Positions 17,071 through 46,650 are shown, counted from the first letter of the stretch. The stretch is DNA of 64,000 nt from Planctomycetota bacterium (GCA_028289345.1 JANQQL010000005.1:291012-355011), one strand, 5' to 3'. The notes: generated from the sequence alone by a model not told the origin. Numbers and translations: made by a program.

Positions 17071-17082
17071 GGTTCGAGTTCG

Positions 17083-17694: not shown

Positions 17695-17766
17695 ATTCAA
17701 CCCACGGCCCGATGGTCAGTGGATGAGTTTCGCACGGAGTCGTTGTTCGAAGTGGCGAACGATCCG

Positions 17767-20740: not shown

Positions 20741-20782
20741 TCCGAGCGAAGCACCCCCGGGGGATTGAGCTATTGACGCTCC

Positions 20783-21277
20783 ATGACCCTGGACTGGCAA
20801 TCGTTCTTGAAGCGCTACGGCCCCCTGGCTCGCAACATGGCTCGGGGACTGGGCTGCCGGGAGGAGGATGCCGACGATCTGATCCAGGAGGCGTGTGCCA
20901 GTTTGTGGCGCGTGCTCGAGGAGACGCCCTCCCGGATCGAGGGGGAGAGTCACATGCGCAACTACTTTTTGAAAGCCGTCAGGAACCTCTCCCTCCGCAT
21001 TCGGCGTCGCCCGACACCCGCCAACATGGACGATCTTGCGGCCCCCTCGCCCCCGACCCACGACGAACCTCCCCCGTGGGAATCCATGGCCCAAGCCATC
21101 CAACGACTCTCCGCCAAGGAGCAGGACCTGCTCCGACGCCGCTACAGCCGCAGCCAAACCTTCGCCGAGATCGAACGAGAACTCGGCATCCCCGTGTCCA
21201 CCTTGCATTCCCGCCAAGAGCGCATCCTTTCGAAACTTCGTCGAGCGCTGAATCGATGTCAGGAGGCGGACCCGTGA
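20783..21277 (+). CDS. ECF (sigma-70 family, group IV) RNA polymerase sigma factor
   Basis: Region 2 (DADDLIQEACASLWR) and region 4 HTH (QTFAEIERELGIPVSTLHSRQERILSKLRRAL). Confidence 0.85.
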   Translation: MTLDWQSFLKRYGPLARNMARGLGCREEDADDLIQEACASLWRVLEETPSRIEGESHMRNYFLKAVRNLSLRIRRRPTPANMDDLAAPSPPTHDEPPPWESMAQAIQRLSAKEQDLLRRRYSRSQTFAEIERELGIPVSTLHSRQERILSKLRRALNRCQEADP

Positions 21278-32570: not shown

Positions 32571-34124
32571 TCAGCGCTTCCGCGGCCGAACCTCTGCCCA
32601 ATCGAGCACGCGATTCTCTTCCGCCCAGCGCTCGTAGAGCTCGACGAGCTGGGCGACTCGTTCCGGGTTCTCGGACGCAAGATCGCGACGCTCCGTGGGA
32701 TCAAGTGCCAGATCGTAGAGATGCCAGTCCTTGCGAAAGGGAGCCACCAGTTTCCACCGGCCGAATCGCACCGCACGATTCCCTTCGTGCTCCCAGAACA
32801 GCGGCTCGTTCCGCGAGAAAGACTGCCCGCCGAAGAGGGGCCTCAGGCTTTGACCCGGCTCTTCCCCGGGATCTGCCCCCGCCGCCTCGAACAATGTCGG
32901 CGCCAAATCGATGAGGTGGACCGGAGCGCGTACCAGTCGGCCCGGTTCCTGGATTCCCGCCGGCCAATGCATGATGCACGGCGTTGCAATCCCTCCCTCG
33001 AACACCTGGTGCTTGAAACCGCGAAAGGGGGTGTTGGAAACACTTGCCCACCGACCTCCGTAGCTGGCGAACAGATCGGGGGAACCCAACGCCCCCTCCC
33101 CCCGCGTGATTCCATTCGCCCCACCCTCCGCACTGGCACCGTTGTCCGAGAGAAACATGACAAGGGTGTTTTCGAGAATGCCTTGCTTCTCGAAGCTCTC
33201 GATGAGCCGGCCGATCTGTTGGTCCAGTTCGTGGACCTGGGCCGCGTAGTACGCCATGCGAAGCCCGTGGTCTTCCGAGTCTTCGGCCTCCAAATGAGAA
33301 GGCTCCAGAGGGCTCGGCTCGGTGTCCTTCGGGACCAGACCCAGCTCTTTCAACCGTTCCATTCGGGCACTCCGAACCGCAAGCCATCCCTTCTGATAGG
33401 TCGTCGAGTACAGGTCCACGTGGTCAGCTTGGGCCTGCAGAGGCCAGTGGGGAGCGGAGTAAGCCACGTACAAGAAGAATGGTCGAGCTTCCTGGACACA
33501 CTCCTCGACAAGTTCCAAGGCCACGTCTGTGAACTGCTCGGTGGCCCACCACTCTCCTTCGTGCAAGACCGGTTCGCCGTCGAACTCGAAGCCGCTGGCC
33601 GCTCGATGTCCGTGAGGGCCGGCTCGCGTCCCGAAGAAACGATCGAAACCGTGGCTGCAAGGGTCCGTGCGCAGATGCCACTTGCCCACCAACATCGTGG
33701 AGTAACCCTGGGCTCGCAGGCCCTTCGGAATCGTGGGGGTCGACTTGTTCAGACGGCCGCGATACCCCGACGGCGTGAGGCTCCGGACCGTCCAGCCCAC
33801 CCCCACTTCGTGGGGATACTGGCCAGTGATCAATGACGCGCGAGTCGGCGAACAGCGGCCACAGTTGTAGAAGTTGGTGAAACGAAGTCCCTGGCCTGCC
33901 AGGCGATCGAGATTCGGAGTCTGGATTTCTCCCCCGTAGCAACCAAGGTCCGAGTATCCGAGGTCATCCGCGAGCAACACCACGAAGTTCGGCTTTGAAG
34001 GGGAGCTGCCGTATGCCAGAGACGAACAAACCACAGAAAGAGCAAGGAGAGCCTGGACAGCTCGTGGAGCAGTCCGCGACCCTCGACGGCGGATCTCGGC
34101 TGAATCCCTCGCTGTCTCGCTCAT
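32571..34124 (-). CDS. arylsulfatase (sulfatase family, formylglycine-dependent)
   Basis: VVLLADDLGYSDLGCYGG; CSPTRASLITGQYPHEVG (C-x-P-x-R sulfatase signature); signal-like leader RTAPRAVQALLALSVVCSSLAYG. Start trimmed to MSETAR (34124). Confidence 0.85.
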   Translation of the reverse strand: MSETARDSAEIRRRGSRTAPRAVQALLALSVVCSSLAYGSSPSKPNFVVLLADDLGYSDLGCYGGEIQTPNLDRLAGQGLRFTNFYNCGRCSPTRASLITGQYPHEVGVGWTVRSLTPSGYRGRLNKSTPTIPKGLRAQGYSTMLVGKWHLRTDPCSHGFDRFFGTRAGPHGHRAASGFEFDGEPVLHEGEWWATEQFTDVALELVEECVQEARPFFLYVAYSAPHWPLQAQADHVDLYSTTYQKGWLAVRSARMERLKELGLVPKDTEPSPLEPSHLEAEDSEDHGLRMAYYAAQVHELDQQIGRLIESFEKQGILENTLVMFLSDNGASAEGGANGITRGEGALGSPDLFASYGGRWASVSNTPFRGFKHQVFEGGIATPCIMHWPAGIQEPGRLVRAPVHLIDLAPTLFEAAGADPGEEPGQSLRPLFGGQSFSRNEPLFWEHEGNRAVRFGRWKLVAPFRKDWHLYDLALDPTERRDLASENPERVAQLVELYERWAEENRVLDWAEVRPRKR

Positions 34125-34267
34125 CGATCCCTTCTCCTGATCGGGATGGCCCGCGGTTCTTGACGACTTGGCAGGAGCCAGACGGGAATTCCGAATCGCT
34201 GGCTGGCGCTGGACAGGATATCGAAGAAACTGTTCGACTCCGATCATCTGCCGACAGGAGGCCTGAG

Positions 34268-34813
34268 ATGCGGAAACGACCAATTGTGGGAGTGATGGGA
34301 TCTGGCTCTCTCAGTCACGATGCCGCTGCTTCGGAGTTGGGGAGCTTCCTGGCCACCCGCGCAGTCCACTTGCTGACGGGAGGAGGGGGTGGGGTCATGA
34401 CCAGCGTGAGCAAGGCGTTCTCCCTTTGCAAACCGCGCCTCGGCTGCGTGATCGGCGTGCTGCCATGCGCCAGTCAAGAACAACCGACCATGCCGAAACC
34501 GGGATACCCCAATGACTGGATCGAAATCCCCATCCACACCCACCTGCCTCTGAGCGGCCTTCAGGGAAGAGACTTGGCGTCTCGAAATCACATCAACGTC
34601 TTGTCCTCAGACGTCGTCATCTCGCTTCCCGGCAGTGAAGGCACGCGAAGCGAGATTGATCTTGCGTTGGACTACGGACGGCCAGTCATTGCCTATCTGC
34701 CCCACGACCTGGAGTTTCCCAAGCTTCCCTCCAAGGTGTCCGTGGCCACCGATCTCCCCTCGCTCGAGCGATTCCTCGATGAGCACTTGCCACAGCCTCA
34801 GGATGGGCAGTGA
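34268..34813 (+). CDS. SLOG/LOG-like Rossmann-fold protein (TIGR00725-type, lysine-decarboxylase-like family)
   Basis: PIVGVMGSGS...HLLTGGGGGVMTSVSKAF...ISLPGSEGTRSEIDLAL matches the GGGxGxM and PGGxGTxxE signatures of LOG/TIGR00725. ATG 34268 after aggagg; divergent from the sulfatase. Confidence 0.65.
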   Translation: MRKRPIVGVMGSGSLSHDAAASELGSFLATRAVHLLTGGGGGVMTSVSKAFSLCKPRLGCVIGVLPCASQEQPTMPKPGYPNDWIEIPIHTHLPLSGLQGRDLASRNHINVLSSDVVISLPGSEGTRSEIDLALDYGRPVIAYLPHDLEFPKLPSKVSVATDLPSLERFLDEHLPQPQDGQ

Positions 34814-34921
34814 CGCTTCCACCTTGATTGCCAAGGAGTCGCCGGACGTTGCAATTTCTCACATTGTGCGTCGCTTCATTGGTGACTACTCTCTGCCCAT
34901 GTCAGCCCAAAGGGAGATGTC

Positions 34922-37900
34922 ATGGATTGGATAGCCAAGCAGATTCAATCAGTCCGAGACGGGGCGAGTACCAGACTCGATCTATGGGACGAAGAGCTGA
35001 CAGAGCTGCCGAATGAAGTACTGTCTCTCCACAAGCTCGAATATCTCAGGGTAAGGTCGGGCAAGCTTCGCACGATTCCCTCTGAGCTAGCAAAGCTCCC
35101 CAATCTCAAGAGTGTCGACCTATTCGGCAACCCCATCGAGTCTCTGGTCGATCTCCCGGGGTTACACCTGGATGTCGAGCCCTATCTCTCCTGCGTTTCG
35201 AGCATCTCTCCAGAAAATGTGCACGGGCTGTGGCTCGGCCCGTCTCCTTTCATTAGTTACAGTCTTCTCGAGAAGCTTGCCAACCTCCGACGACTCGACC
35301 TAAGCCGGCGGGATCGGTTCGCGTACAAGACCGGCCTCAACAAACCCGGCCCTTTGCGAAAGTTGTTCGCTTGGCTGAAATCCGCGAACGAGATCCTCAG
35401 CCGCCTCGAAACTTTGGAGATCGCGTACGCGAAACTCGATCGTCTTCCCCTAGTCATCCGGCAATTAAGCCAACTAAAGAAGCTCAACTTAGACGGCAAT
35501 CCTCTTCACCGGTTTCCAAACATCTCGAGGCTTCGAGAACTGTTCGCCTTGCGTCTCTCCGACACCGGGATCAGAGAGGTGCCGGACAAGCTGTGCCGTC
35601 TCACGGAACTTCGAAATCTTGACCTCTCCTTCAACGACCTAGTCAAACTTCCAAACGACATCGGTCGGCTAACCAAACTCTCGAGTCTGGTCCTCGAATC
35701 CAACAACCTCGAGAGAATCCCCAGCTCAGTTCGGAAGCTCAAGAAACTCACATTCCTGGATCTTTCCGACAACCCACTAGCGGAATTTCCGCGGGAGATA
35801 TTTTCTCTCAGTAACCTTCGCGCCTTGAACATGACATGCGGTCTTGACGACTCGACCTGCCAACGTGGCACTTATCCCTTCGTGCGGACCCGACCGTCTC
35901 AAGCGTCGTTTCAGGAGATCCCACCCCGCATTCTCGAGCTCAAGCAACTCGAAGAGCTGCGTGTTTCCGGACAGCCGATTGAGACGCCACCCCCAGAGGT
36001 CGTCGACCGAGGCCTTGAGGCGATCAAGGACTATTGGAGGCAGCGGGGGGACTCGGGGACCGACTATCTTTGCGAGGCCAAACTGCTGGTCGTCGGCGAA
36101 GGGGGGGCTGGCAAGACCTCCCTCGCCAAGAAAGTCAAAGCTCCGGAAACCAACCTCGACGCAGAAGAGGAGTCGACGGAAGGAATTGAAGTTCTCGAGT
36201 GGACATTCCCCACGGCGCTAAGGGTCACAGAGAACGGCCAACTCAAAACCGTGGAGCGCGACTTCCGGGTCCACATCTGGGATTTCGGGGGTCAGGAGAT
36301 CTACCACGCGACCCATCAGTTTTTCCTGACCCGTCGATCTCTCTACGCCCTTGTCGCCGACAACCGCAAGGAAGACACCGACTTCAACTACTGGCTCAAC
36401 ATTGTCGAGCTATTGAGTGACGGAAGCCCGTTGGTCATCGTCAAGAACGAACGCCAAGACCGACAAAGAGACATTGATGAGGGATCTCTTCATGGCCGGT
36501 TCCGCAATCTCACCCAAGTCGTGGCGACGAACCTGAAAACCAACCGGGGGCTCGACGGCGTCCTCCAACGGTTCCGCGAAGAACTCGAGAAGCTGTCCCA
36601 CGTCGGCACTCCCCTTCCGGCAACGTGGAAGCGGGTGCGAGACGCTCTCGAGAAAGACCCCCGCAACTACATCGAACTCGACGAGTATCTCAGGATCTGC
36701 GAGGTTCATGGGTTCACCCGTCTGGACGACAAGCTTCAGTTGAGTGGATACCTCCACGACCTAGGCATCTTCCTCCACTTCCAAGACGATCCCCTGCTGA
36801 AACGAATCGTCATTCTTCAGCCAAAATGGGGAACGGATGCCGTCTATCGCGTCCTTGACAACGACACGGTCCTTCGAAGACACGGCAGGGTGAGCCGCAA
36901 CGACCTAGAGAACATCTGGGACGAAGAAGCTTACGCATCCATGCGCGACGAGCTGCTGCAACTCATGATGCGATTTCAGCTCCTTTACCCACTTCCCTCG
37001 AAGAACGAGTTCATCGCCCCTCAACTGTTAGGATCCGCACAGCCTGAGTACCCATGGCCGGGGACGGGCAACCTCGTCATTCGCTACCGCTACGAGTTCA
37101 TGCCGAAAGGACTCCTGACGCGGCTCATCGTGGCCGTCCACGACATGATTCAAAGCGAAGGTTTCGTCTGGAAGACGGGAGTCCTCGTCGAGCGAGATGG
37201 GACACGCGCGGAGATCGTCGAGCACTACTCCCAGCGATGCATCGTGGTTCGAATTCACGGGGCTTTTCAACAAGAGCTCGCTGCGGTGATTGACCGAGAG
37301 CTCGAACAGATCCACCGTTCCTTTCCTCCACTCAAGTACGACACTCTCGTCCCCTGCGGATGCACCTTGTGCTCTTCGAGCCCAGACCCCCACCCACACT
37401 CCTACAAGACGCTACGAAAGTTTGCTTGGGATGGACAACCGATCCAGTGCCCCATTAGCTACGAGATGATTGAACCGCGGTCGATCCTCGACCACAAATT
37501 CGTGCGCAACCGCAAGCTGGACATAATCCTCGACACGATCGAAGGCACACTCCGACCGCAACAAGCAGAGCCGGCCGCGGCTGAGTCCCGCGAGGTGCTC
37601 CTGTCCTATGCCTGGAACGGAGGATGTGACACCTTGATCGAAAAACTCGAAAAGTCGTTCCGAGAGCGCGGAATCGAGCTGATCCGCGACCGAAGCGAGA
37701 TGACCTACAAGGACTCGATCCGAGGTTTCATGAAGCGCATCGGCACAGGAAAATGTGTTGTCATCGTCATCAGCAAAGAGTACCTGGAGTCCCCCAACTG
37801 CATGTTCGAACTTACCGAGATCGCCAAACACGGCGAGTTTCGTGATCGAGTGTTTCCCATCGTCCTCTCGGACGCGAAGCTGTTCCATCCGGTCAGTCGG

Positions 37901-38140
37901 TTGAAGTACATCAAGCATTGGGAGTTGCAGATCGCGGACCTTGACGAGGCAATGAAGGAAGTCGAGCAGACAAACTTGGACTCCATTCAGGAAGAGATCA
38001 ATCATTATCGGGAAATCCGGACGACCATTGCCGACCTCACAAATGTGCTTCGCGACATGAATAGCCTCACGACAGAGGATCACATCGACACCGAGTTCGA
38101 AGCACTTCTCAATGCGGTCGACTCGCGGTTACGAACCTGA
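34922..38140 (+). CDS. ROCO-type protein with C-terminal TIR domain: LRR - Roc (Ras-like GTPase) - COR - TIR
   Basis: At least 12 LRRs (LxxLxxLxLxxNxL, e.g. LTELRNLDLSFNDLVKLPNDIGRLTKLSSLVLESNNLERIPSSV). Roc G1 LLVVGEGGAGKTSLAKKV (about 36091-36123) and G3 WDFGGQEIY. COR (LSGYLHDLGIFLHFQDDPLLKRIVILQPKWGTDAVYRVLD). C-terminal TIR (VLLSYAWNGG...KCVVIVISKEYLESPNCMFELTEIAK; Glu codons at 37808-37810 and 37817-37819). GC about 43-55% versus about 65% in flanking regions. Confidence 0.85.
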   Translation: MDWIAKQIQSVRDGASTRLDLWDEELTELPNEVLSLHKLEYLRVRSGKLRTIPSELAKLPNLKSVDLFGNPIESLVDLPGLHLDVEPYLSCVSSISPENVHGLWLGPSPFISYSLLEKLANLRRLDLSRRDRFAYKTGLNKPGPLRKLFAWLKSANEILSRLETLEIAYAKLDRLPLVIRQLSQLKKLNLDGNPLHRFPNISRLRELFALRLSDTGIREVPDKLCRLTELRNLDLSFNDLVKLPNDIGRLTKLSSLVLESNNLERIPSSVRKLKKLTFLDLSDNPLAEFPREIFSLSNLRALNMTCGLDDSTCQRGTYPFVRTRPSQASFQEIPPRILELKQLEELRVSGQPIETPPPEVVDRGLEAIKDYWRQRGDSGTDYLCEAKLLVVGEGGAGKTSLAKKVKAPETNLDAEEESTEGIEVLEWTFPTALRVTENGQLKTVERDFRVHIWDFGGQEIYHATHQFFLTRRSLYALVADNRKEDTDFNYWLNIVELLSDGSPLVIVKNERQDRQRDIDEGSLHGRFRNLTQVVATNLKTNRGLDGVLQRFREELEKLSHVGTPLPATWKRVRDALEKDPRNYIELDEYLRICEVHGFTRLDDKLQLSGYLHDLGIFLHFQDDPLLKRIVILQPKWGTDAVYRVLDNDTVLRRHGRVSRNDLENIWDEEAYASMRDELLQLMMRFQLLYPLPSKNEFIAPQLLGSAQPEYPWPGTGNLVIRYRYEFMPKGLLTRLIVAVHDMIQSEGFVWKTGVLVERDGTRAEIVEHYSQRCIVVRIHGAFQQELAAVIDRELEQIHRSFPPLKYDTLVPCGCTLCSSSPDPHPHSYKTLRKFAWDGQPIQCPISYEMIEPRSILDHKFVRNRKLDIILDTIEGTLRPQQAEPAAAESREVLLSYAWNGGCDTLIEKLEKSFRERGIELIRDRSEMTYKDSIRGFMKRIGTGKCVVIVISKEYLESPNCMFELTEIAKHGEFRDRVFPIVLSDAKLFHPVSRLKYIKHWELQIADLDEAMKEVEQTNLDSIQEEINHYREIRTTIADLTNVLRDMNSLTTEDHIDTEFEALLNAVDSRLRT

Positions 38141-38147
38141 CATTCCT

Positions 38148-39452
38148 TTAGTTGTTCTGATTGTCGAACAAGAAGGCCGTCCCTTCTGCAACGCGCCGAA
38201 GCTGAGCATTCGACCAACTCACGTAGTCCACCAGACCACCACGCTTGTCCAGAAGTGACAGGTTGCCGCCGGAGTTGGGTAAGCGCAGCTTGCCGAGAGT
38301 GGAGCCCTTGAGCCGCAGAGCCCCCCCCGACTCGATCGATCCTTCAACCGTGACTTCCCGACCTTGGCCATCGATGAGCCGCCAGCCGGTGACCGACGTC
38401 TTGCGGTCTCCCCGGTTGTGCAGTGACACCCATTCCCCCGAGGCCTCGGTTCCCTTCGGGTTGATCATGGCGGAAATGATCACAATGCGCCGGGACGCAA
38501 GACCCTCCACTTCGGGTCGATCCTCCGCACTTTCGGTGATCACCGAGTTGCTGGGAACCACCGGAATTCGCTCTGGCAGCGAATGGGCGGTTCGTCGGTT
38601 CGCGGGTACGTTTCGATACAGCAGCGGATTCGCATCGTACAGGGCTTTGCCGAAGTGGATGCCCGTCAGATCCTGCAACTCGCTGATGGTCACCTGGTAG
38701 TTTTGATTGGTCTTGACCTGTTTTCCACCTTTCTTGTCCCGCAACACCTCCGCATCTTGAAAGATCGCAAAGGCCATGACCCCCAACGGCTCTCCCGCGG
38801 GCGCCTCTTTCCGAGCGTAGCAGATCACTTTGAAGAACCCCGACGGCACCCGCGCGGAGTCACTGTCCGAAAGGTTGATGTGTCGGTCCAAGTCTCCATA
38901 GATCGGCCCCGTGAACACCGACAGGCGGTCGTTTGCGTCATCCTTGAACTCCCGCACGATGTCCAGCTCCAATGCTTTCCACTCATCGCGGTTCAGGTTC
39001 TCGTGCTGAAGTGACGAGTTCGTATAGATGAATGTCGCCTTCCCCGCTTTGTCGGACTCGGTGTTGTCCACCCCCCACATGTTGTTGAAACGCATGACCA
39101 TGTGCCCACGGTCGTAGGGATTGGGAATCTTTGCTCCCGATGGGGTCTTTCGGTCCTTGTAGTAGTCATTGTCCAGCTGATGATGACGACCAACATTGGG
39201 ATCATTGCGCCAGCCTCGTTCCCCGTTGCCGGGTGGCTTGGGTTTGAAACGGGACTGATCGATGTTGTAAGCGGAATAGATCAGCTGCCGAGTGTGCTCA
39301 TTCATCAGCACGCTGAAATGCACGTGGTCGGAGTACCGCTCGTCTCTCAAGGAAGCGCTTTTCAGCACGGAGCGTCCGAGCGTGGCATTGACTGTTGGCA
39401 AAGGAACGCGCAGCCCTCCACCAATGAACTCCGGGTCATATCCAATTTGCAT
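38148..39452 (-). CDS. DNA/RNA non-specific endonuclease (Endonuclease_NS, DRGH motif) fused to a C-terminal lamin-tail domain (LTD)
   Basis: HFSVLMNEHTRQLIYSAYNID...; catalytic NPYDRGHMVMRFNN. C-terminus EWVSLHNRGDRKTSVTGWRLIDGQGREVTV...GGNLSLLDKRGGLVDYVSW has the LTD pattern. No signal peptide seen. Convergent with the ROCO-TIR gene, stop-to-stop gap of 7 nt. Confidence 0.8.
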   Translation of the reverse strand: MQIGYDPEFIGGGLRVPLPTVNATLGRSVLKSASLRDERYSDHVHFSVLMNEHTRQLIYSAYNIDQSRFKPKPPGNGERGWRNDPNVGRHHQLDNDYYKDRKTPSGAKIPNPYDRGHMVMRFNNMWGVDNTESDKAGKATFIYTNSSLQHENLNRDEWKALELDIVREFKDDANDRLSVFTGPIYGDLDRHINLSDSDSARVPSGFFKVICYARKEAPAGEPLGVMAFAIFQDAEVLRDKKGGKQVKTNQNYQVTISELQDLTGIHFGKALYDANPLLYRNVPANRRTAHSLPERIPVVPSNSVITESAEDRPEVEGLASRRIVIISAMINPKGTEASGEWVSLHNRGDRKTSVTGWRLIDGQGREVTVEGSIESGGALRLKGSTLGKLRLPNSGGNLSLLDKRGGLVDYVSWSNAQLRRVAEGTAFLFDNQNN

Positions 39453-39778
39453 GACATTCCCTCTCCAGAGGACATGGACTCGCCAGATCCTATCCCCTGC
39501 TCGATTGCAATCGTAGACTTCGCCTTGTCGAGGAGCCGCTCGTCAAGCCATCCGCAACTCATGGTCCTCGCGCCCCCCGACTTCGGCTCGCCCTTGAGTT
39601 CCGACTTGAGGTGACTGCCACCGATTGTAGGGACCCTTTCCGAGCACCCACGTGACGAAGGACATCCGCGTCCACCGTCTGATGGGGCAATGGCCGGAAT
39701 CGCTTTCTTGAGTCCCGATCTGTTGGACGAACTCGAGTACAATCTCCACCGCCCACCATCTTCCACGAAGGATCCCCG

Positions 39779-40912
39779 ATGACGCGTTGCGCTTGGCTGT
39801 TGTCTCTCATGCTCTTCCCGACTGGAGGTTGCCAGGTGTCGCCGGACGTCGAACCACAATGGCTGGGCTTTCGGGGCGGCCCGACTCACCCAGGACGGAG
39901 TGCGAATGCACAACCTCTGGACACGCCGCAGCTCGCGTGGGAGTTCGACACGGGGGGAACGGTCGAGTCCTCGCCGACCATTGTCGAGGGAATCCTCTAC
40001 TGCGGCACCTTTGCCGACCATCTCTTCGCGCTCGATGCGGAGCACGGAACCGAGCGCTGGCGTTTTCCCGTGAAGGGACTGGTGCGTGCTTCCCCTTCGG
40101 TCGCCCATGGCATGGTGTACTTCGGAGCCGATGACAACCGCTTCTACGCCCTCGATGCCCAGACCGGTGCTCTCCGTTGGTCAGTGGAGCTAGGAGGCGG
40201 CGGAGAACAGTCCTCCCCGGCTCTGGTCGATGGCATTTGCTACTTCGGAGCCTTCGATCACGCGGTGTATGCGGTCGACGCTCGCACCGGCGAGCTTCGT
40301 TGGAAGACCATGACAGGCGGGGAAATCCTCTCGTCGCCCGCAGTCGCCGATGGCTTGCTCGCCATTGGATCGCGGGATGGATCGATCTACGGCTTGGACA
40401 CCGCGACCGGGGCCGAACGATTCCGGTTCGTCACGAACGACACCGTCTGGTGTTCGCCGGCGATCGTGAGCGACTTGGTGGTGTGCGGTTCGGATGATGG
40501 CAATGTCTACGGCATCGATGCCCATTCAGGAGCGGAGCGATGGCGTTTTGCAACCGGGGGCACCGTGTTCTCGTCTCCGGCGATCTCCCCGGAGGACGAC
40601 ACGCTCTACATCGGCTCGGACGATCACCACGTCTACGCACTTTCCCTGGCCGATGGGCAGGAGCGCTGGCGCTGCGATCTGGAAGGCCGCGTGCTCGGCA
40701 CTCCCGCCATTGTCGGCAATCACGTCTATGTCGGGGGTGAAGGATCCGGCGGCCCGAAACCCGGAGCACTGTTCGCCATCGACCGGACGAATGGCTCCGT
40801 GGTCTGGCGCTACGAAGTGGGAGCCACGGTTTGGAGCTCTCCCACCGTCATCGGAGACTCCCTTTGGTTTGGCGCCCACGACGGCAAGATTCGCCGGCTC
40901 GTGAACAGGTGA
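39779..40912 (+). CDS. PQQ-like beta-propeller repeat lipoprotein (BamB-like fold)
   Basis: Leader MTRCAWLLSLMLFPTGGC; at least 7 repeats of the GxxYxGxxDxxxYALDAxTGxxRW type. Confidence 0.8.
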   Translation: MTRCAWLLSLMLFPTGGCQVSPDVEPQWLGFRGGPTHPGRSANAQPLDTPQLAWEFDTGGTVESSPTIVEGILYCGTFADHLFALDAEHGTERWRFPVKGLVRASPSVAHGMVYFGADDNRFYALDAQTGALRWSVELGGGGEQSSPALVDGICYFGAFDHAVYAVDARTGELRWKTMTGGEILSSPAVADGLLAIGSRDGSIYGLDTATGAERFRFVTNDTVWCSPAIVSDLVVCGSDDGNVYGIDAHSGAERWRFATGGTVFSSPAISPEDDTLYIGSDDHHVYALSLADGQERWRCDLEGRVLGTPAIVGNHVYVGGEGSGGPKPGALFAIDRTNGSVVWRYEVGATVWSSPTVIGDSLWFGAHDGKIRRLVNR

Positions 40913-41084: not shown

Positions 41085-44000
41085 CTACGGTTGAACCACG
41101 GTGAGCGTCAAAGACGATGCTCCAAAACTGGCCTGCAGCTCTAACCCGCCACCCAAGACCAATCCGTTGTAGGTCGAGAAGTCTCCTGAGCGCGACCCGT
41201 AAGTCATGATTTCGAAACTGTCACCGAGCTGGGGCGAGAAACCGTTGATAAGCGTCACATTCAGCGTCCCGTCCAGGGTGACCGTACCGCCGACGACCAG
41301 AACATCGAAGTCTGTCCCGGCGGTCAATCCTCCAATCTCGACCTCCATCTGGGCGCTGGAGGATTGGCTGTAATCACCCGTGAACTCAAGCGTTCCCGGG
41401 GAAAGACCAATGTCCGTGGTCCCCTCGACGTCGCCGCTTCCGGTCACTACGCCAGCCCCCCGAAGGGTCCCGGATTGGATGTCGAGGACGAAACTCCCCA
41501 CATCAAAGTTGCCCCCGTTCAGGAACGTCGTGCCCGCGGTTTGGGTGTAGCCGCCCTGAAGCACCAGGGTGCCAGTTTGGACCTCGACGTCGCCGTCGTT
41601 GCGAAACACGACATTGCTCGGAAACACGGTGTCGCCACTGTCAACGGAACGAAGGAAAGTGCCCGAGTTGTTGAAGGTCGAGCTGCTCCCGGACGCGAAT
41701 CCGAAGTCCGCATCACTCTGCACGTCGAAGGTGGCCCCGGCCAGATTGTTGAACACGGAGCCGTTATTGAGGAACAGATCTCCCGAGCCGGTCATGGTGC
41801 TCGCTCCGGAGTTGTTGAGTGTGCGACCGGTCATGACCTTGTTTTGGCTTCCACCGATGGACAGGTTGCCCGAGGAGGGAATGGTCGTGGTCCCGACCTC
41901 GAGCATGAATCCCCCGTTCCAAATGACCGAGTTTTGGGCACTGATCTCTCCGGTTCCTAGGATGGATCCACCGCTTTGGGTGAGGGTGTTGGTGATGACG
42001 ATGCCATCGATGTCCGTCTCGCCCCCGACCACCTGGAATCCCTCCACGGTGAGATTCACTCCGGCTTCGATCTCGAAGGTCCCCCCAATGGTCCGCCAGT
42101 CACCCAAACCGGAAGCCGAGGTCCCCGGCTGCAAAGTTGCCACAGGATTGACCGAGTTGAACTCAATCGCTGCTCCGGAAGACACGTCGACCCCCCCGGT
42201 GTTGATCCCACCTCCGCGGAGACGGAAAGTGCCAGACTGGATCTCCAAGTTTCCATCGCTGTTGAAAACCAGACTCGCGTCCACTTCGGTCACGTCGGTC
42301 CCCCCGGACTTCCGCACTGTGCCGTCATTGTTGAACGTGGAGGGGGTGCCGGTGAAGAACTCCAGGTCAGCATCGGTCTGAACGTCGAAGGTGGCTCCCG
42401 CGAGATTGTTGAAGACCGCCCCATTGTCGATGAACAGAGAACCGTCTCCAGGAACAGCGACGGTCGCCGAGTTGTTGAACGTCCGTCCACCCCGCAGGAT
42501 CTTCGATCCGGACCCGCCCAAAGTCGCCGCAGACCCTGCGGGCACCGTGGTCGTGCCGGGACCACTCTGAGTTCCGCCGGTCCAGTTCATCGACGACGTC
42601 ACCCGCAGCTCGCCAGCTCCCGAAAGAGTGCCCAAGCTCTGTTCGAAGTTTTCTACATCGACCGGTGTCCCTGTCACGTCCAGGGTTCCGCCGATCAGTC
42701 GACCGTTGCCGTCCCCGCTGATGCTGCTCCCATTGGTCAGTGTGGACGTCCCCGCGGCAAACTCCATTGCGGTCCCGGAGTCGAGGGCGAACGACCCCGA
42801 GTTGCTGCCGCCACCTCGAATCTGAAGGCTCCCGGTTTGCACCTGCACCGTTCCGTCATTGTTAAAGGTGAGATTCACGTCGAAGGAATTGGTTCCCGCA
42901 CCTGCGGACTTGACGAAAGTCCCCGCGTTGTTGAAAGCTCCCGGGGCCCCGGTGAAATGCTCGAACGAGGCGTCGCTTTGGACGTCGAAGGAGGCTCCAG
43001 CCAAGTTGTTGAAGACCGCACCCGAAGAGATGAACAAGTCGCCGCTATCAGTCAGTGTCGCCGAGCCTCCGTGATTGATGGTTCGGCCGGAAGTCAAGTT
43101 CTTGGCTCCGGTGCCGCGGATGGTCAACGTGGCCCCCCCCGAAATGGAGGTCGTCCCGGGACCCGCTTGCTCGCCCCCGGTCCATTCCATGGAATCGTTG
43201 ACGATGAGATTGCCATCGCCCTGGAGTTTCCCTGAAGACTGACGGAACGTATCAACGACCGTACTGCCGTCGTCCGCAAGATTCCCGGCCTCGAGGATCA
43301 ACTGCGTGATCAACAAATCGACGCCACTCGAGACTTCCAAGGTCCCGGAATTCACCCGATACTCCCCGTCTCCGTTGCAGGTCGTGGAGGGGTTGAAGAC
43401 GTACGTCGGGTTCGCAGAAGCAAATTCAATCGCCGTCCCCGTGTCGGAAGTGAAGGACCCCGTGCTGGCCCCTCCTCCGGTGAAACGAAACGAGCCGGAC
43501 TGGACCTGCACCGTCCCATCGTTGTTGAACCTCAGGCCGGCGTCCACATTGGTCGTGTCCGCGCCCGCGGATTTCACCAAGGATCCGCGGTTGTCGAAGG
43601 TCGAGGGCGCCCCGGTGAAGAACTCGAGATCCGCATCGCCCTGAATGTCAAAGGTTGCCCCGGCCAGGTTGTTGAACACCGCTCCGTCGTCGATGAACAA
43701 GCTCCCGGAATCGCTCAGCGTCGTCGTTCCCGAGTTGTCCATGGTCCGCCCGCCTCGAAGAACCTTGGGGGAAGATCCGGAAACGAACAGGTCCGCATCA
43801 CTGCCGATCGTCGTCTTCCCGGACCCGTTTTGCATTCCTCCCGTCCAATTCATGCGATTGCTGATGAGCAGCTCGCCGTTGCCGGTTACGGTTCCCGTGG
43901 ACTGCGAGAAGCTCTCGAACGTGACCGGGTTCCCGGCCACATCCAAGGTGCCTCCGCTGAGCAGAGCCTCGCCGTCACCACTGACGCTTGCTCCGGTGTC

Positions 44001-45005
44001 GAGAATGGAAGTGCCCGAGGCGAAGTCCACCGACGATGAGGAGGAAATCGAAAACATCCCAGAAGAGGTTCCCCCTCCGATCAACTGCAGCGTTCCGCTC
44101 TGGACTTGGACGGTTCCGTCATTGTTGAACGCCAGGTTGACGTCGAACGAGGTATTCGTCCCGCTGGACTTGACGAAGTTCCCCTCGTTGTTGAACTCCC
44201 CAGGAACTCCCGTGAAGTGTTCAAATGCCGCGTCGGATTGCACGTCGAAGCTGGCTCCGGCGAGGTTGTTGAACGTGGCGCCCTCCGAGATGAAGAGAGA
44301 CCCGGTGTCCGTGAGGGTGGTCGAACCCCGGTTGTTCATGGTTCGGCCTCCGGTCAGGTTCTTCGCGGACGAGCTACTCATCTGAAGCGTGGCGGACTCC
44401 CCGATGTTGGTCCGTCCGTTTCCGGTTTGCTCTCCCCCGGTCCAGTTCGCTTGCACGGTGACCAACAAACGATTGCCGCCGGTCACGACCCCTCCGGATT
44501 GGGTGAAGTATTCGACATCGAGTTTCTTGTCAACCAGCAGAGTCCCTTGGGACACACACAGATTGCGGATGGTGGAGACACTCTTCTTGACTTCCAGCTC
44601 CCCCCCGGCGAGTTCGATCGTCTCCGTGCATAGGATCTTGCCCGGTTCCGCCGTGCCCGAAGAGAGAGTGACCGTGACGTCCGCACTGGAACGGTCAATG
44701 ATGACGGTTTGCCCCGGCAGCGGCGGCCCTCCCGTACTCCAATTGCTGCCGTCTTCCCAGATGCCGCTGGAGTTGCTGATCCAAATCGCATCGCCCGAAG
44801 GATCTGGCTCGATCCCGATTCGCGGTTTCTCGATCTGAGATCGGGCCGTGGAACTCCAAGCCAACACGAGAGCGAGCCCCAAGAACCGGGAAGCTCCCTC
44901 GGAGAGAAAACGCTTCAAGCCTCGACGCAACGCGATTGCCACTCTGACCATTTCGAAACCCTCATCCCTTTGCCCTCCGGTCCAGAGCCGTCCCGATGCC
45001 TTCAT
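41085..45005 (-). CDS. giant secreted beta-strand-repeat protein (autotransporter-associated / PATR-type repeats), 1306 aa
   Basis: Signal peptide; about 5 tandem units of about 210 aa, each containing NWTGG...GRT(M/I)N(N/H)xGxxTLTDSGxLFIxxGAVFNNLAGA(S/T)FDVQSDA...FNNDGTVQVQ(S/T)GxL. Confidence 0.8.
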   Translation of the reverse strand: MKASGRLWTGGQRDEGFEMVRVAIALRRGLKRFLSEGASRFLGLALVLAWSSTARSQIEKPRIGIEPDPSGDAIWISNSSGIWEDGSNWSTGGPPLPGQTVIIDRSSADVTVTLSSGTAEPGKILCTETIELAGGELEVKKSVSTIRNLCVSQGTLLVDKKLDVEYFTQSGGVVTGGNRLLVTVQANWTGGEQTGNGRTNIGESATLQMSSSSAKNLTGGRTMNNRGSTTLTDTGSLFISEGATFNNLAGASFDVQSDAAFEHFTGVPGEFNNEGNFVKSSGTNTSFDVNLAFNNDGTVQVQSGTLQLIGGGTSSGMFSISSSSSVDFASGTSILDTGASVSGDGEALLSGGTLDVAGNPVTFESFSQSTGTVTGNGELLISNRMNWTGGMQNGSGKTTIGSDADLFVSGSSPKVLRGGRTMDNSGTTTLSDSGSLFIDDGAVFNNLAGATFDIQGDADLEFFTGAPSTFDNRGSLVKSAGADTTNVDAGLRFNNDGTVQVQSGSFRFTGGGASTGSFTSDTGTAIEFASANPTYVFNPSTTCNGDGEYRVNSGTLEVSSGVDLLITQLILEAGNLADDGSTVVDTFRQSSGKLQGDGNLIVNDSMEWTGGEQAGPGTTSISGGATLTIRGTGAKNLTSGRTINHGGSATLTDSGDLFISSGAVFNNLAGASFDVQSDASFEHFTGAPGAFNNAGTFVKSAGAGTNSFDVNLTFNNDGTVQVQTGSLQIRGGGSNSGSFALDSGTAMEFAAGTSTLTNGSSISGDGNGRLIGGTLDVTGTPVDVENFEQSLGTLSGAGELRVTSSMNWTGGTQSGPGTTTVPAGSAATLGGSGSKILRGGRTFNNSATVAVPGDGSLFIDNGAVFNNLAGATFDVQTDADLEFFTGTPSTFNNDGTVRKSGGTDVTEVDASLVFNSDGNLEIQSGTFRLRGGGINTGGVDVSSGAAIEFNSVNPVATLQPGTSASGLGDWRTIGGTFEIEAGVNLTVEGFQVVGGETDIDGIVITNTLTQSGGSILGTGEISAQNSVIWNGGFMLEVGTTTIPSSGNLSIGGSQNKVMTGRTLNNSGASTMTGSGDLFLNNGSVFNNLAGATFDVQSDADFGFASGSSSTFNNSGTFLRSVDSGDTVFPSNVVFRNDGDVEVQTGTLVLQGGYTQTAGTTFLNGGNFDVGSFVLDIQSGTLRGAGVVTGSGDVEGTTDIGLSPGTLEFTGDYSQSSSAQMEVEIGGLTAGTDFDVLVVGGTVTLDGTLNVTLINGFSPQLGDSFEIMTYGSRSGDFSTYNGLVLGGGLELQASFGASSLTLTVVQP
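41405..44555 (-). repeat. intragenic tandem repeat array (about 5 x about 630 bp) inside the giant repeat protein gene
   Basis: Periodicity seen at the protein level (NWTGG at about aa 188, 400, 615, 830, 1050). DNA-level identity not computed. Confidence 0.6.
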
Positions 45006-45401: not shown

Positions 45402-46115
45402 CTAGGCCAGCTCGTCGGAAAGCGAGGAAACAAGGAACAGCAGGCACCCCTTGGTCGTGCTCTGGACTGGGTGATGGCTACCAGCCGCAGCTCGCTGATA
45501 GTCGCCCGCGTGCATCACTTCTTCTCCGACTCTCAGATCGCCTTCCAGCACGAAGCACTCTTCGGGGCCCCCGTGACGGTGGCGCGGATAGGAAGTGCCC
45601 GGCGCCATGCGCACCAGCATCGTGGTTTGGTCACGTTCTCGATCCACGAACAAGCGCCGCGTTTCGACCCCATCGATCCCCGTCGGCTCCCAAGATTGCT
45701 CGCCGCCGCGAACCAAGAACATGGGGTCGGACGCTTGGTCGCCACTCCACTGCTTCCAAACCTGGGGGTTCGGACCATTCTTCGCGCTCCCCAACTCGGG
45801 GCCGGAGCCCGCCGATTCCGACGTCTCCGAATCGGCAACCGACGGCTCCGAGGCCGCAATCTCTGCAAGGAGCCGCTCCTTGATGCGAGGCGGAACGTTG
45901 GTTTCTGGGGTCAGCTCGAGCAACGCCTGAGCCGCCGAGTCGAGCTCCGCGATCGCTTTCCGCATCGCCGAGTCTCCGGAGGCAAGGCGGCGTTCAACGT
46001 CTTGGGCTTGCTCCGGCGACAACCCGCCAGCGACGTACAAGGCTGCCAGCTCTTCGACATCCGGATGCTTTGGCTGGTCGTTCATTTCCCCGGACTCATT
46101 TCGAAGAGACTCCAT
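45402..46115 (-). CDS. anti-sigma factor, ChrR-like with C-terminal cupin domain
   Basis: N-terminal anti-sigma helix (LAALYVAGGLSPEQAQDVERRLASGDSAMRKAIAEL); C-terminal cupin (TTMLVRMAPGTSYPRHRHGGPEECFVLEGDLRVGEEV). The likely start is the internal MNDQ (46085), which removes the overlap with the sigma gene. Confidence 0.75.
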   Translation of the reverse strand: MESLRNESGEMNDQPKHPDVEELAALYVAGGLSPEQAQDVERRLASGDSAMRKAIAELDSAAQALLELTPETNVPPRIKERLLAEIAASEPSVADSETSESAGSGPELGSAKNGPNPQVWKQWSGDQASDPMFLVRGGEQSWEPTGIDGVETRRLFVDRERDQTTMLVRMAPGTSYPRHRHGGPEECFVLEGDLRVGEEVMHAGDYQRAAAGSHHPVQSTTKGCLLFLVSSLSDELA

Positions 46116-46650
46116 CCACCTTGGTCATCGAACCTCGGAGCCGCTGCATACCGCGGCGGATGCGTGTTTTGACGGTTCCCAAGGGTAGGTTTGTTTGACA
46201 AGCAATGTCTTCGTGGGTCAGCCCTCCGAAGTAGGCCGCCAAGATGGCACTTCGTTGCTCTTCGGTCAGCGAGTCCAGGGCCCGATGAGCCGCCGCCGCA
46301 CGCTCCTTCTGTTCGAGCCTCGGGGCGAAATCTCCGACCTTCGCGAGCTGATCCATGCTGTCTGTGGAACCGGGCGCTCGGCTCCGCCGTCGGTGATTGT
46401 CCCGCGCCCGCGATCGAGCGAGTAGTGTCAGCCACCCTCGCACCGAGGCTCGAGCGGGATCGAACTGGCGGGCCCGCTTCCACGCTTCGAGGAAAACGTC
46501 CTGCAACACGTCTTCGGCGGCCTGGTGATCCCTCAACATCCCAACGAGAAGCCCGAACACACGTCGCGAATGGCGATCGTACAGTTGAGAAAACGACGCC
46601 CGGTCGCCCTTCGCCATGCATCGGATCAAGTCTTCGTCGGGTGTGCTCAC
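46096..46650 (-). CDS. ECF RNA polymerase sigma factor
   Basis: Region 2 (AEDVLQDVFLEAWKRARQFD); region 4 HTH (LTHEDIACQTNLPLGTVKTRIRRGMQRLR). Confidence 0.85.
   Translation of the reverse strand: MSTPDEDLIRCMAKGDRASFSQLYDRHSRRVFGLLVGMLRDHQAAEDVLQDVFLEAWKRARQFDPARASVRGWLTLLARSRARDNHRRRSRAPGSTDSMDQLAKVGDFAPRLEQKERAAAAHRALDSLTEEQRSAILAAYFGGLTHEDIACQTNLPLGTVKTRIRRGMQRLRGSMTKVDGVSSK

What the first reader, a model, noticed from the sequence alone, without database searches (positions are those of the whole stretch)
34900..39460. Compositional island: about 4.5 kb at about 43-57% GC embedded in about 63-68% GC flanks
I counted GC on several 60-nt lines. ROCO lines gave 43-55% and nuclease lines 53-57%, against 62-70% on the flanking lines I counted (PQQ, CHAT). 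The island holds exactly the two convergent genes and has no flanking transposase, integrase or tRNA. This points to horizontal acquisition of the pair as a unit, as is typical of defence islands.
Basis: seen in the sequence. Interest (0 to 1): 0.55.

Follow-up and report, generated by a model that had tools for sequence, protein, structure and literature searches.

The report
Modest GC dip from protein composition
A real but small drop in GC content covers two neighbouring accessory genes (a Roco-type GTPase with a TIR domain, and a non-specific nuclease); most of it comes from the amino acids these proteins use, not from foreign DNA that arrived recently as one block, so the finding is ordinary.

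Summary
The dip is real but about half as deep as reported. Positions 34900-39460 are 56.2% GC against 61.6% for the rest of the window. It is the only significant low-GC segment in the 64 kb (34472-39520).

About 79% of the deficit lies at codon positions 1 and 2. GC3 is 0.690 (ROCO) and 0.716 (nuclease) against 0.730 in the background. Each protein's sequence combined with host codon usage predicts its GC to within 1 point. The dinucleotide signature is not deviant. Homologues of both genes show the same dip in other high-GC genomes.

The genes are:
- an LRR-Roc-COR-TIR protein (34922-38140, +) with intact GTPase motifs and the TIR catalytic Glu;
- an Endonuclease_NS + lamin-tail-domain nuclease (38148-39452, -) with an intact DRGH/Asn/Glu site.

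The pair is not a conserved unit. None of 80 Roco loci carries this nuclease, and none of five nuclease-homologue contexts carries a Roco or TIR gene.

The host is a planctomycete. The nuclease's nearest relatives (69-74% identity) are gammaproteobacterial, which indicates an older, separate transfer. There are no mobility genes, tRNAs or known defence genes nearby.

LRR-Roc-COR-TIR proteins have already been predicted to be single-protein immune sensors.

Verdict: ordinary; the horizontal-transfer reading is only partly right.

The parts
34472..39520 (.). The only statistically significant low-GC segment of the window (56.2% GC against 61.6% elsewhere)
   Evidence: Maximum-scoring segment of 29.9 nats (block-level 28.6), against a null maximum of 8.8 in 200 block permutations. 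Sliding-window profiles agree.
34922..38140 (+). Gene for a 1072-aa LRR-Roc-COR-A-COR-B-TIR protein (a Roco / AP-GTPase family protein with a C-terminal TIR effector). GC 55.8%, GC2 0.373, GC3 0.690.
   Evidence: Pfam: COR-A 3.7e-44, COR-B 6.5e-29, Roc 9.1e-23, LRR_14 1.9e-20, TIR_2 4e-11. PDB matches to Chlorobium tepidum Roco (6hlu, 8r4b, 3dpu) at 1e-60 over aa 351-811. Composition.
34979..35956 (+). Leucine-rich repeat region (about aa 20-345), the presumed sensor. It contains the deepest GC minimum (about 52% at 35450-35900).
   Evidence: LRR_14, LRR_8 and LRR_4 hits. SHOC-2 and LRR-receptor PDB hits over aa 154-318. GC profile. Leu is 14.1% against 9.7% in the background.
36080..36451 (+). 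Roc GTPase domain (aa 387-510) with P-loop GEGGAGKT and switch II DFGGQE
   Evidence: Pfam Roc. G392, G395, G397, K398, T399 and D454-E459 are invariant in 29 homologues.
36617..37492 (+). COR-A (aa 566-703) and COR-B (aa 717-857), the dimerisation and coupling module
   Evidence: Pfam PF16095 and PF25497. PDB Roco matches.
37595..37921 (+). TIR domain (aa 892-1000). The putative catalytic Glu963 lies in the motif SPNCMFELTEI.
   Evidence: TIR_2 4e-11 and TIR 1.2e-4. Alignment to the Roq1 TIR places E963 on the second Glu of WCLEEL. E963 is invariant in 29 homologues.
38148..39452 (-). Gene for a 434-aa DNA/RNA non-specific endonuclease with a C-terminal lamin tail domain. Convergent with the Roco gene, with 7 bp between the stop codons. 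GC 57.7%, GC2 0.420, GC3 0.716.
   Evidence: Pfam Endonuclease_NS 5.1e-32 (aa 39-272) and LTD 7.6e-9 (aa 320-414). D114, H117, N154 and E162 are invariant and G116 is at least 95% conserved in 110 homologues. Sequence read.
38637..39338 (-). Endonuclease_NS catalytic domain (aa 39-272) with the DRGH motif at aa 114-117
38211..38495 (-). Lamin tail domain (aa 320-414)
34268..34813 (+). Upstream neighbour: a 181-aa stand-alone SLOG/LOG-like protein (SLOG cluster 4) on the same strand as the Roco gene, 108 bp upstream. Its composition is background-like, so it is not part of the dip. A functional link is untested.
   Evidence: Pfam LDcluster4 4.4e-28. TIGR00725 2e-15, below the cutoff. GC 0.601, GC2 0.473, GC3 0.698. 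No homologue in 80 Roco loci.

Best explanation
The GC trough marks two unrelated accessory genes that lie side by side. Both encode proteins poor in Ala and Gly and rich in residues encoded by AT-rich codons (Leu, Ile, Lys and Glu in the Roco protein; Asn, Lys and Tyr in the nuclease). This lowers GC at codon positions 1 and 2. Synonymous sites are essentially host-like. It is not a recently imported block.

Gene 1 is a self-contained LRR-Roc-COR-TIR protein. The inferred mechanism is that the LRR region senses a ligand, probably from an invader. The Roc-COR GTPase acts as the conformational and oligomerisation switch. The C-terminal TIR domain then hydrolyses NAD+ or makes an ADP-ribose-derived signal, giving growth arrest or abortive infection.

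Gene 2 is an independent sugar-non-specific beta-beta-alpha-metal nuclease with a lamin tail domain. It belongs to a tight family found mostly in marine Pseudomonadota. It entered this planctomycete lineage by an older inter-phylum transfer, and its codon usage now matches the host. Its role is probably nucleic-acid degradation or scavenging rather than partnership with the Roco protein.

Shown here: the composition decomposition, the domain architectures, the intact catalytic motifs, the lack of conserved pairing, and the phyletic affinities. Inferred: ligand sensing, NADase output and the physiological roles.
For: **Composition**
- The deficit splits 20% / 59% / 21% over codon positions 1 / 2 / 3.
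- In the Roco protein Ala is 4.6% against 9.4%, Gly 5.0% against 9.3% and Leu 14.1% against 9.7%. Its Gly+Ala+Arg+Pro fraction (0.232) is below the minimum of 26 background genes.
- GC expected from the amino-acid sequence plus host codon usage is 0.567 and 0.579; observed values are 0.558 and 0.577. The residuals are z -0.6 and -0.1.
- Dinucleotide delta* is 41.7, against 38.4 +/- 14.5 for other windows; 40 of 101 are at least as deviant.

**Family property**
- Roco homologues in hosts above 55% GC average 6.3 points below their flanks (9 of 10 negative), with GC2 of 0.27-0.45 across the family.
- Nuclease homologues are 3.0-4.5 points below their flanks in four hosts above 55% GC.

**Architecture and motifs:**

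**Independence of the two genes**
- tblastn of the window nuclease and SLOG protein against 80 Roco loci gave no hits.
- Pfam on 123 neighbours of 19 Roco-TIR loci did not list Endonuclease_NS among the 25 most recurrent families.
- Downstream neighbours are heterogeneous housekeeping genes such as FmdE, cytochrome c, a hydrolase, UPRTase and MutS.
- Five nuclease-homologue contexts lack any Roco or TIR gene.

**Phyletic evidence**
- All named GluRS hits are Planctomycetota, with a best identity of 68%.
- The nuclease's nearest relatives are P0127 (74%, on a contig whose neighbours are annotated Gammaproteobacteria) and P0129 (69%, a Gammaproteobacteria MAG). These three sequences cluster together.

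**Literature:** LRR-AP-GTPase-COR proteins with C-terminal TIR and other effectors are described as predicted single-protein counter-invader systems (PMC8195603, section 15).
Against: - The Roco gene's GC3 is 4 points below the background, its synonymous-codon log-likelihood is at z -1.5, and the island's tetranucleotide correlation is on the low side (0.892 against 0.924 +/- 0.021; 8 of 101 windows are lower). A faint residual foreign signal therefore cannot be excluded.
- The background is only 26 genes from one 64-kb window.
- Two other Roco-TIR loci do have nuclease-type neighbours. In a Thermoanaerobaculia genome a Trypsin-PLD gene is convergent and 3 bp away. In a Planctomycetota MAG a Trypsin-Endonuclease_NS gene lies about 5 kb away in a TIR-rich cluster. 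A loose functional link between Roco-TIR and nucleases is therefore not ruled out.
- The nuclease has no recognisable N-terminal signal peptide, which fits poorly with an extracellular scavenging role.
- No biochemical or genetic data exist for either protein.
Confidence: 0.72

Rival explanations
1. One reading: the Roco-TIR gene and the nuclease were acquired together, fairly recently, as a two-gene defence cassette. On this view the low GC reflects a lower-GC donor.
For: - The low-GC segment coincides with the two genes.
- The genes are tightly packed, with 7 bp between the stop codons.
- TIR and nuclease domains are both common in defence systems.
- Both genes are singletons at 90% identity and patchily distributed.
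Against: - GC3 and codon usage are host-like, and 79% of the deficit is at positions 1 and 2.
- The dinucleotide signature is not deviant.
- The pairing was absent from 80 Roco loci and 5 nuclease contexts.
- The nearest relatives differ: Pseudomonadota at 69-74% for the nuclease, against Acidobacteriota, Myxococcota, Cyanobacteria and others at about 50% for the Roco protein.
- The genes are convergent, so they are not one operon.
- There is no integrase, tRNA or significant flanking repeat.
- PADLOC gives no system-level hits.
Confidence: 0.08
2. The three adjacent genes form one TIR-signalling immune system of Thoeris-like logic. The Roco-gated TIR would make an ADP-ribose-derived signal, which is bound or processed by the stand-alone SLOG protein and/or activates the LTD nuclease as the killing effector.
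For: - The SLOG gene lies 108 bp upstream on the same strand as the TIR gene.
- SLOG is the cADPR-sensing domain of the type I Thoeris effector (bioRxiv 10.64898/2025.12.03.692087, read).
- A Planctomycetota MAG has a Roco-TIR gene in a cluster with TIR-SLOG and Trypsin-Endonuclease_NS genes.
- A Thermoanaerobaculia Roco-TIR gene is convergent with a Trypsin-PLD gene.
Against: - No homologue of this SLOG protein or this nuclease lies next to any of 80 Roco loci, and LDcluster4 is not among the recurrent neighbour families.
- The nuclease family has no recognisable sensor domain for a nucleotide signal, and it occurs alone in five unrelated contexts.
- The SLOG protein carries a LOG-type PGxxGTxxE-like motif and looks like a housekeeping LOG/TIGR00725-like enzyme.
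- PADLOC gives no hit for the SLOG protein or the nuclease.
Confidence: 0.07
3. The dip is a fossil of ancient transfer from a lower-GC donor. Synonymous sites have drifted to host values, but the slower-evolving amino-acid composition (positions 1 and 2) still reflects the donor.
For: - The Roco gene's GC3 is slightly low (0.690 against 0.730) and the tetranucleotide correlation is slightly low.
- Many Roco-TIR homologues live in low-GC cyanobacteria.
- The family is patchily distributed across phyla at about 45-50% identity.
Against: - Low GC2 is a property of the whole Roco family, even in hosts at 70% GC or above (GC2 0.43-0.45 in Actinoplanes and Paractinoplanes). The same holds for the nuclease family (GC2 0.37-0.42).
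- The amino-acid bias follows from the fold: LRR motifs are Leu- and Asn-rich.
- The nuclease's nearest relatives sit in hosts of 55-65% GC.
Confidence: 0.13

Closest known systems
Prokaryotic LRR-AP-GTPase(Roc)-COR proteins with C-terminal effector domains, predicted counter-invader systems (Kaur, Iyer, Burroughs and Aravind, eLife 2021, PMC8195603)
   Same: The domain order is the same: N-terminal LRRs, Roc GTPase, COR, then a C-terminal effector. TIR is explicitly listed among the 24 or more effector domains. The gene is stand-alone and has variable neighbours.
   Different: Nothing architectural differs. This copy is about 50% identical to its nearest relatives and sits in a planctomycete. 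The family's immune role is a prediction and has not been tested experimentally; I found no paper linking Roco proteins to anti-phage activity.
Chlorobium tepidum Roco protein (LRR-Roc-COR; PDB 6hlu, 8r4b, 3dpu), the bacterial LRRK2 homologue
   Same: The Roc-COR tandem aligns at E about 1e-60 over aa 351-811. The P-loop and switch II are conserved.
   Different: The CtRoco structures were matched here only over the Roc-COR region, and no TIR effector was seen in those matches. The window protein adds a TIR domain with the catalytic Glu and an alpha-helical tail of about 70 aa.
Plant TIR-NLR receptors (for example Roq1 and RPP1) and bacterial TIR NADases / Thoeris ThsB
   Same: The TIR domain aligns with the Roq1, RPP1 and L6 TIRs, including the catalytic Glu of the WCxxEL motif. 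The overall logic is the same: an LRR sensor, a nucleotide-dependent switch and a TIR output.
   Different: The switch is a Ras-like GTPase with COR, not a STAND ATPase. The order is LRR first and TIR last, the reverse of plant TNLs. There is no ThsA-type effector, and PADLOC finds no Thoeris-system match.
Serratia / Anabaena NucA / EndoG family of sugar-non-specific beta-beta-alpha-metal nucleases (Pfam PF01223)
   Same: Endonuclease_NS domain at 5e-32. The DRGH histidine, the metal-binding Asn and the Glu eight residues later are invariant across 110 homologues.
   Different: It carries a C-terminal lamin tail domain and has no obvious signal peptide. No PDB sequence relative reaches E<=1e-3. 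It forms a tight family of about 435 aa, mostly in marine Pseudomonadota and Bacteroidota.
LTD-containing extracellular nucleases such as Shewanella ExeM (PMC6085458)
   Same: A lamin tail domain is fused to a nuclease. In ExeM the LTD contributes to full DNase activity and is associated with secreted or membrane-linked hydrolases.
   Different: ExeM has an N-terminal signal peptide, an N-terminal LTD and an EEP-type nuclease. Here the nuclease is of the Endonuclease_NS type, the LTD is C-terminal and no signal peptide is visible.

Membership tests
Roco protein family | Roc (Ras-like GTPase) domain immediately followed by a COR domain | tested here: met
   Pfam Roc 9.1e-23, COR-A 3.7e-44, COR-B 6.5e-29 in order. 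Matches C. tepidum Roco structures at 1e-60.
Roco protein family | Intact GTP-binding motifs (P-loop GxxxxGK[ST], switch II DxxGQ) | tested here: met
   GEGGAGKT at aa 392-399 and DFGGQE at aa 454-459, invariant in 29 homologues
Roco protein family | GTP binding and hydrolysis, nucleotide-dependent dimerisation | not testable with these tools
   Needs biochemistry
Predicted AP-GTPase counter-invader systems (PMC8195603) | N-terminal LRRs + AP-GTPase + COR + variable C-terminal effector such as TIR | tested here: met
   Architecture. Description read.
Catalytic TIR (NADase / cyclase) domains | TIR fold with a conserved catalytic glutamate | tested here: met
   TIR_2 4e-11. E963 aligns with the Roq1 WCLEEL Glu and is invariant.
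Catalytic TIR (NADase / cyclase) domains | NAD+ cleavage or signal production | not testable with these tools
   Needs an enzyme assay
Thoeris defence system | ThsB-type TIR gene adjacent to a ThsA-type effector (SIR2-SLOG, Macro-TM, caspase-like, etc.) | tested here: not met
   PADLOC gives only weak TIR-domain hits (5e-5 to 2e-3) and none for the neighbours. The adjacent SLOG protein has no effector domain.
Endonuclease_NS (Serratia nuclease / NucA / EndoG) family | Beta-beta-alpha-metal active site: DRGH His, metal-binding Asn, downstream Glu | tested here: met
   D114, H117, N154 and E162 invariant and G116 at least 95% conserved in 110 homologues. Pfam 5.1e-32.
Recently acquired genomic island | Atypical synonymous codon usage, GC3 or oligonucleotide signature | tested here: not met
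   GC3 z -1.3 and -0.3. GC residual after amino-acid correction z -0.6 and -0.1. delta* average; tetranucleotide correlation only mildly low.
Recently acquired genomic island | Mobility hallmarks: flanking tRNA, integrase or transposase, direct repeats | tested here: not met
   No tRNA. No Rfam hits. No mobility domains among the window ORFs scanned. Only a chance-level 16-nt repeat.
Recently acquired genomic island | Absent from the syntenic site in close relatives | tested here: inconclusive
   The nearest PQQ-gene relatives (66-72% identity; L093-L097) share no neighbouring genes with the window. All window proteins looked up are singletons at 90% identity apart from two start-codon variants of the 1306-aa protein.
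Defence island | Clustering with other known defence genes | tested here: not met
   PADLOC on 17 proteins or ORFs between 19.5 and 51 kb gives nothing beyond weak TIR and receiver-domain hits.
Conserved two-gene system (Roco-TIR + nuclease) | Recurrent adjacency of the two families across genomes | tested here: not met
   0 of 80 Roco loci. Endonuclease_NS is not a recurrent neighbour family at 19 Roco-TIR loci. 0 of 5 nuclease contexts.

The most novel reading that the evidence does not exclude
The SLOG gene, the Roco-TIR gene and the LTD nuclease work together as a so-far undescribed GTPase-gated TIR signalling system. The Roco switch would license the TIR domain to make a nucleotide signal, which then controls a non-specific nuclease. 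The two other Roco-TIR loci with nuclease-type neighbours (Trypsin-PLD, Trypsin-Endonuclease_NS) would be variants of the same theme.
Probability: 0.07. Interest if true: 0.6.

Novelty: new member of a known kind. Interest (0 to 1): 0.15.

Why it matters
The main lesson is methodological. A GC dip over a gene is not evidence of foreign origin unless it shows at synonymous sites. Here the dip largely disappears once amino-acid composition is accounted for, and it recurs wherever these protein families sit in GC-rich genomes.

The biology is modest. The window adds one planctomycete copy of the widespread LRR-Roc-COR-TIR family. That family is a bacterial counterpart of plant TIR-NLR receptors, built on an LRRK2-like GTPase, and its predicted immune role still has no experimental test. 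The window also holds a clear case of a nuclease shared between Gammaproteobacteria and Planctomycetota. Neither result changes current understanding.

Tried and rejected
1. **Empty-site and synteny test.** A metagenome scan anchored on the adjacent PQQ beta-propeller gene gave relatives at 66-72% identity on long contigs (L093, L094, L096, L097). None of 17 window proteins other than PQQ was a syntenic neighbour, so no empty site could be defined.
2. **Source genome.** Exact-sequence look-ups recovered only the source genome itself.
3. **Flanking repeats.** I looked for att-like direct repeats. The only candidate is a 15/16 match (34834-34849 and 39834-39849), which is at about chance expectation and has its right copy inside the PQQ gene.
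4. **RNA genes.** tRNA and Rfam scans of the whole window found nothing.
5. **Defence and phage libraries.** PADLOC gave only weak TIR hits. PHROGs matched only the LRR and TIR regions, in families of unknown function. The nuclease has no relative in viral contigs.
6. **Transcription signals.** The promoter and terminator scan of 33900-40100 found nothing above shuffle expectation.
7. **Nuclease structures.** A PDB sequence search found no hit at E<=1e-3.
8. **SLOG literature.** The search for the SLOG cluster-4 family returned nothing relevant.
9. **CHAT flank.** The 1306-aa gene next to PQQ is a secreted repeat protein, not a CHAT protein.

Full report

Yes, but it is smaller than stated. 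Positions 34900-39460 are 56.2% GC and the rest of the window is 61.6%. This is the lowest 4.5-kb window of the 64 kb (sliding mean 61.0%, sd 1.3%). A maximum-scoring-segment search finds one significant low-GC segment, 34472-39520. Its score is 29.9 nats at base level. On 100-bp blocks it scores 28.6, against a maximum of 8.8 in 200 block permutations; the next best segment scores 5.9.

Island 60-nt lines average 56.2% (range 45-70%) and flank lines 60.8% (range 48-73%). The trough covers two convergent ORFs, 34922-38140 (+) and 38148-39452 (-), with 7 bp between their stop codons. The upstream SLOG gene (34268-34813) has background composition: GC 0.601, GC2 0.473, GC3 0.698.

**2. Where does the deficit come from?**

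I used 26 clean background genes from the window: GC1 0.636, GC2 0.478, GC3 0.730.

| Gene | GC1 | GC2 | GC3 |
|---|---|---|---|
| Background (26 genes) | 0.636 | 0.478 | 0.730 |
| Roco gene | 0.610 | 0.373 | 0.690 |
| Nuclease gene | 0.594 | 0.420 | 0.716 |

- Of the combined deficit, 20% is at position 1, 59% at position 2 and 21% at position 3.
- The Roco protein has half the background Ala and Gly (4.6% and 5.0% against 9.4% and 9.3%). It has excess Leu (14.1% against 9.7%), Lys, Ile and Glu. Its Gly+Ala+Arg+Pro fraction (0.232) is below the lowest background gene (0.267).
- I predicted each gene's GC from its amino-acid sequence and the synonymous codon usage of the other genes. The prediction is 0.567 and 0.579; the observed values are 0.558 and 0.577. 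The residuals are z -0.6 and -0.1. The GC3 residuals are z -1.3 and -0.3, and the synonymous-choice log-likelihoods are z -1.5 and -0.4.
- The Karlin dinucleotide distance of the island from the rest is 41.7, against 38.4 +/- 14.5 for other windows of the same size (40 of 101 are at least as deviant). The tetranucleotide correlation is mildly low: 0.892 against 0.924 +/- 0.021, with 8 of 101 lower.
- The most deviant oligonucleotide signature in the window belongs to the neighbouring 1306-aa repeat-protein gene, not to the island.

**3. Is the dip a property of the protein families?**

Yes.
- In 55 loci with Roco homologues, GC2 is 0.27-0.45 everywhere. In the ten hosts above 55% GC, the gene averages 6.3 points below its flanks, and nine of the ten are negative.
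- Nuclease homologues in four hosts above 55% GC are 3.0-4.5 points below their flanks, with GC2 of 0.37-0.42 and a GC3 that differs from host to host (0.62-0.87).

**4. What are the genes?**

*Gene 1 (1072 aa)* is LRR - Roc - COR-A - COR-B - TIR_2.
- Its Roc-COR tandem matches the Chlorobium tepidum Roco structures at about 1e-60.
- The P-loop (GEGGAGKT, aa 392-399) and switch II (DFGGQE, aa 454-459) are invariant in 29 homologues. So is E963 in the TIR motif SPNCMFELTEI.
- E963 aligns with the second Glu of WCLEEL in the Roq1 TIR. I take that residue to be the catalytic glutamate of plant TIR NADases; this rests on my own knowledge of the family.
- About 5000 homologues were scored. The closest are about 50% identical and are spread over Acidobacteriota, Myxococcota, Cyanobacteria, Gemmatimonadota and Planctomycetota.

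*Gene 2 (434 aa)* is Endonuclease_NS plus a lamin tail domain.
- D114, H117, N154 and E162 are invariant and G116 is at least 95% conserved in 110 homologues.
- No N-terminal hydrophobic signal is visible in the sequence.
- It belongs to a tight family of about 435 aa. All named members are Pseudomonadota or Bacteroidota.

**5. Is the pair a unit?**

No evidence supports this.
- tblastn of the window nuclease (whole protein, catalytic part and LTD) and of the SLOG protein against 80 Roco loci with up to 10-kb flanks gave no hit.
- Pfam on 123 ORFs within 4 kb of 19 Roco-TIR genes did not list Endonuclease_NS among the recurrent families.
- Ten immediate downstream neighbours are unrelated housekeeping genes or have no Pfam match: FmdE, cytochrome c, an alpha/beta hydrolase, DUF4335, a TPR protein, UPRTase, MutS and three with no hit.
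- Five separate contexts of nuclease homologues (62-74% identity) contain metabolic genes, a VapBC pair or transporters, but no Roco or TIR gene.
- There are two partial exceptions. A Thermoanaerobaculia Roco-TIR gene is convergent with a Trypsin-PLD gene 3 bp away. A Planctomycetota MAG has a Roco-TIR gene inside a TIR-rich cluster that includes TIR-SLOG and Trypsin-Endonuclease_NS genes. These keep a loose Roco-TIR/nuclease link possible but do not involve this nuclease family.

**6. Horizontal transfer**

- The host is a planctomycete. Every named GluRS hit is Planctomycetota, and the best hit anywhere is only 68% identical. DUF1579 and a sulfatase are also present in the window, which I regard as typical of planctomycetes.
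- The nuclease is 74% identical to P0127. The neighbours of P0127 on its contig are identical, or at least 90% identical, to proteins annotated as Gammaproteobacteria.
- The nuclease is 69% identical to P0129 from a Gammaproteobacteria MAG. The three sequences cluster together.
- A nuclease closer to gammaproteobacterial proteins than the host's GluRS is to any known relative indicates inter-phylum transfer. Its GC3 now matches the host, so the transfer is not recent, or the donor had a similar GC.
- The Roco-TIR gene has different phyletic neighbours. Independent acquisition is therefore the simplest reading.
- Mobility hallmarks are absent: no tRNA, no Rfam hit, no integrase or transposase domains among the window ORFs scanned, and no significant flanking repeat.
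- PADLOC finds no known defence gene between 19.5 and 51 kb.
- The synteny test failed for lack of close relatives.

**7. Mechanism**

This part is inferred. The Roco-TIR protein is most likely a single-chain sensor, switch and effector. The LRRs bind a trigger. The Roc-COR GTPase cycle controls the oligomeric state, as shown for CtRoco (PMC5714945 and PMC11052575, abstracts listed). The TIR domain then consumes NAD+ or produces an ADP-ribose-derived signal.

This architecture, including TIR as one of more than 24 alternative C-terminal effectors, has already been described as a predicted counter-invader system (PMC8195603). I found no experimental test linking Roco proteins to phage defence.

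The nuclease is most likely an independent non-specific DNase/RNase. LTD fusions are known from extracellular nucleases such as ExeM (PMC6085458). The missing signal peptide leaves its location open.

**8. Verdict**

It is not supported by composition, not as a unit, and not as part of a defence island.
- This is a new member of a known kind, and the interest is low.

Noticed in passing
window 41085-45005 (-): A 1306-aa protein with an N-terminal signal-like hydrophobic stretch and long Gly/Ser/Thr/Asn-rich repeats (recurring FNNxGT...GG units), with no Pfam, PADLOC or PHROG match. Windows covering it have the most deviant di- and tetranucleotide signature of the 64 kb (delta* up to 79; tetranucleotide correlation down to 0.83). 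GC1 0.538 and GC2 0.520 are unusual.
   Followed up: partly
window 21756-24965 (+): A TPR-CHAT protein of 1069 aa (CHAT 2.5e-45), preceded by two ORFs (19499-20740 and 20665-21978) that are unannotated or carry only TPR matches. No PADLOC hit.
   Followed up: partly
L019, L026, L027, L041, L092 (Nostoc loci), within 4 kb of the Roco-TIR homologue: Among neighbours of Roco-TIR homologues, the most recurrent families are glutamine-dependent NAD synthase (CN_hydrolase + NAD_synthase, 5 members), NUDIX/NrtR-type regulators (3) and a cytidylyltransferase-like gene (3). From the matching gene layouts I assign these to the five Nostoc loci, but per-locus Pfam results were not returned. A putative NADase next to NAD synthesis and salvage genes is suggestive, but these are orthologous loci of one genus and so count as one observation.
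   Followed up: no
L012 / L014 (Planctomycetota MAG JACRIP010000601), 1-19000: A Roco-TIR homologue is embedded in a dense TIR-rich cluster: Pentapeptide-TIR, TIR-SLOG (LD_cluster2), Trypsin_2, Peptidase_S8, two further TIR_2 genes, Trypsin-Endonuclease_NS and Trypsin-Exo_endo_phos.
   Followed up: partly
L010 / L011 / L013 (Thermoanaerobaculia MAG DASPMO010000105): A Roco-TIR homologue is convergent with a 940-aa Trypsin_2-PLDc_2 gene, with 3 bp between them. A Uma2 gene and a receiver-domain-CAP12/PCTIR_TIR gene follow. The arrangement has the same geometry as the window pair but a different nuclease type.
   Followed up: partly
window 34268-34813 (+): A stand-alone SLOG cluster-4 / LOG-like protein (with GGGGGVM and PGSEGTRSE motifs) lies 108 bp upstream of the TIR-bearing gene on the same strand. 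Its composition is native. Contexts of its homologues could not be examined.
   Followed up: partly
L134 / L135, just downstream of the nuclease homologue P0143: In one genome the nuclease homologue is followed directly by a VapB-VapC (PIN) toxin-antitoxin pair. This hints at a variable, accessory neighbourhood there too.
   Followed up: no
window 45402-46650 (-): A ChrR-type cupin anti-sigma factor gene and an ECF sigma factor gene whose ORFs overlap by 20 nt, followed further downstream by a Band 7/SPFH protein gene. These are ordinary regulatory genes and show that the surroundings are chromosomal housekeeping.
   Followed up: no
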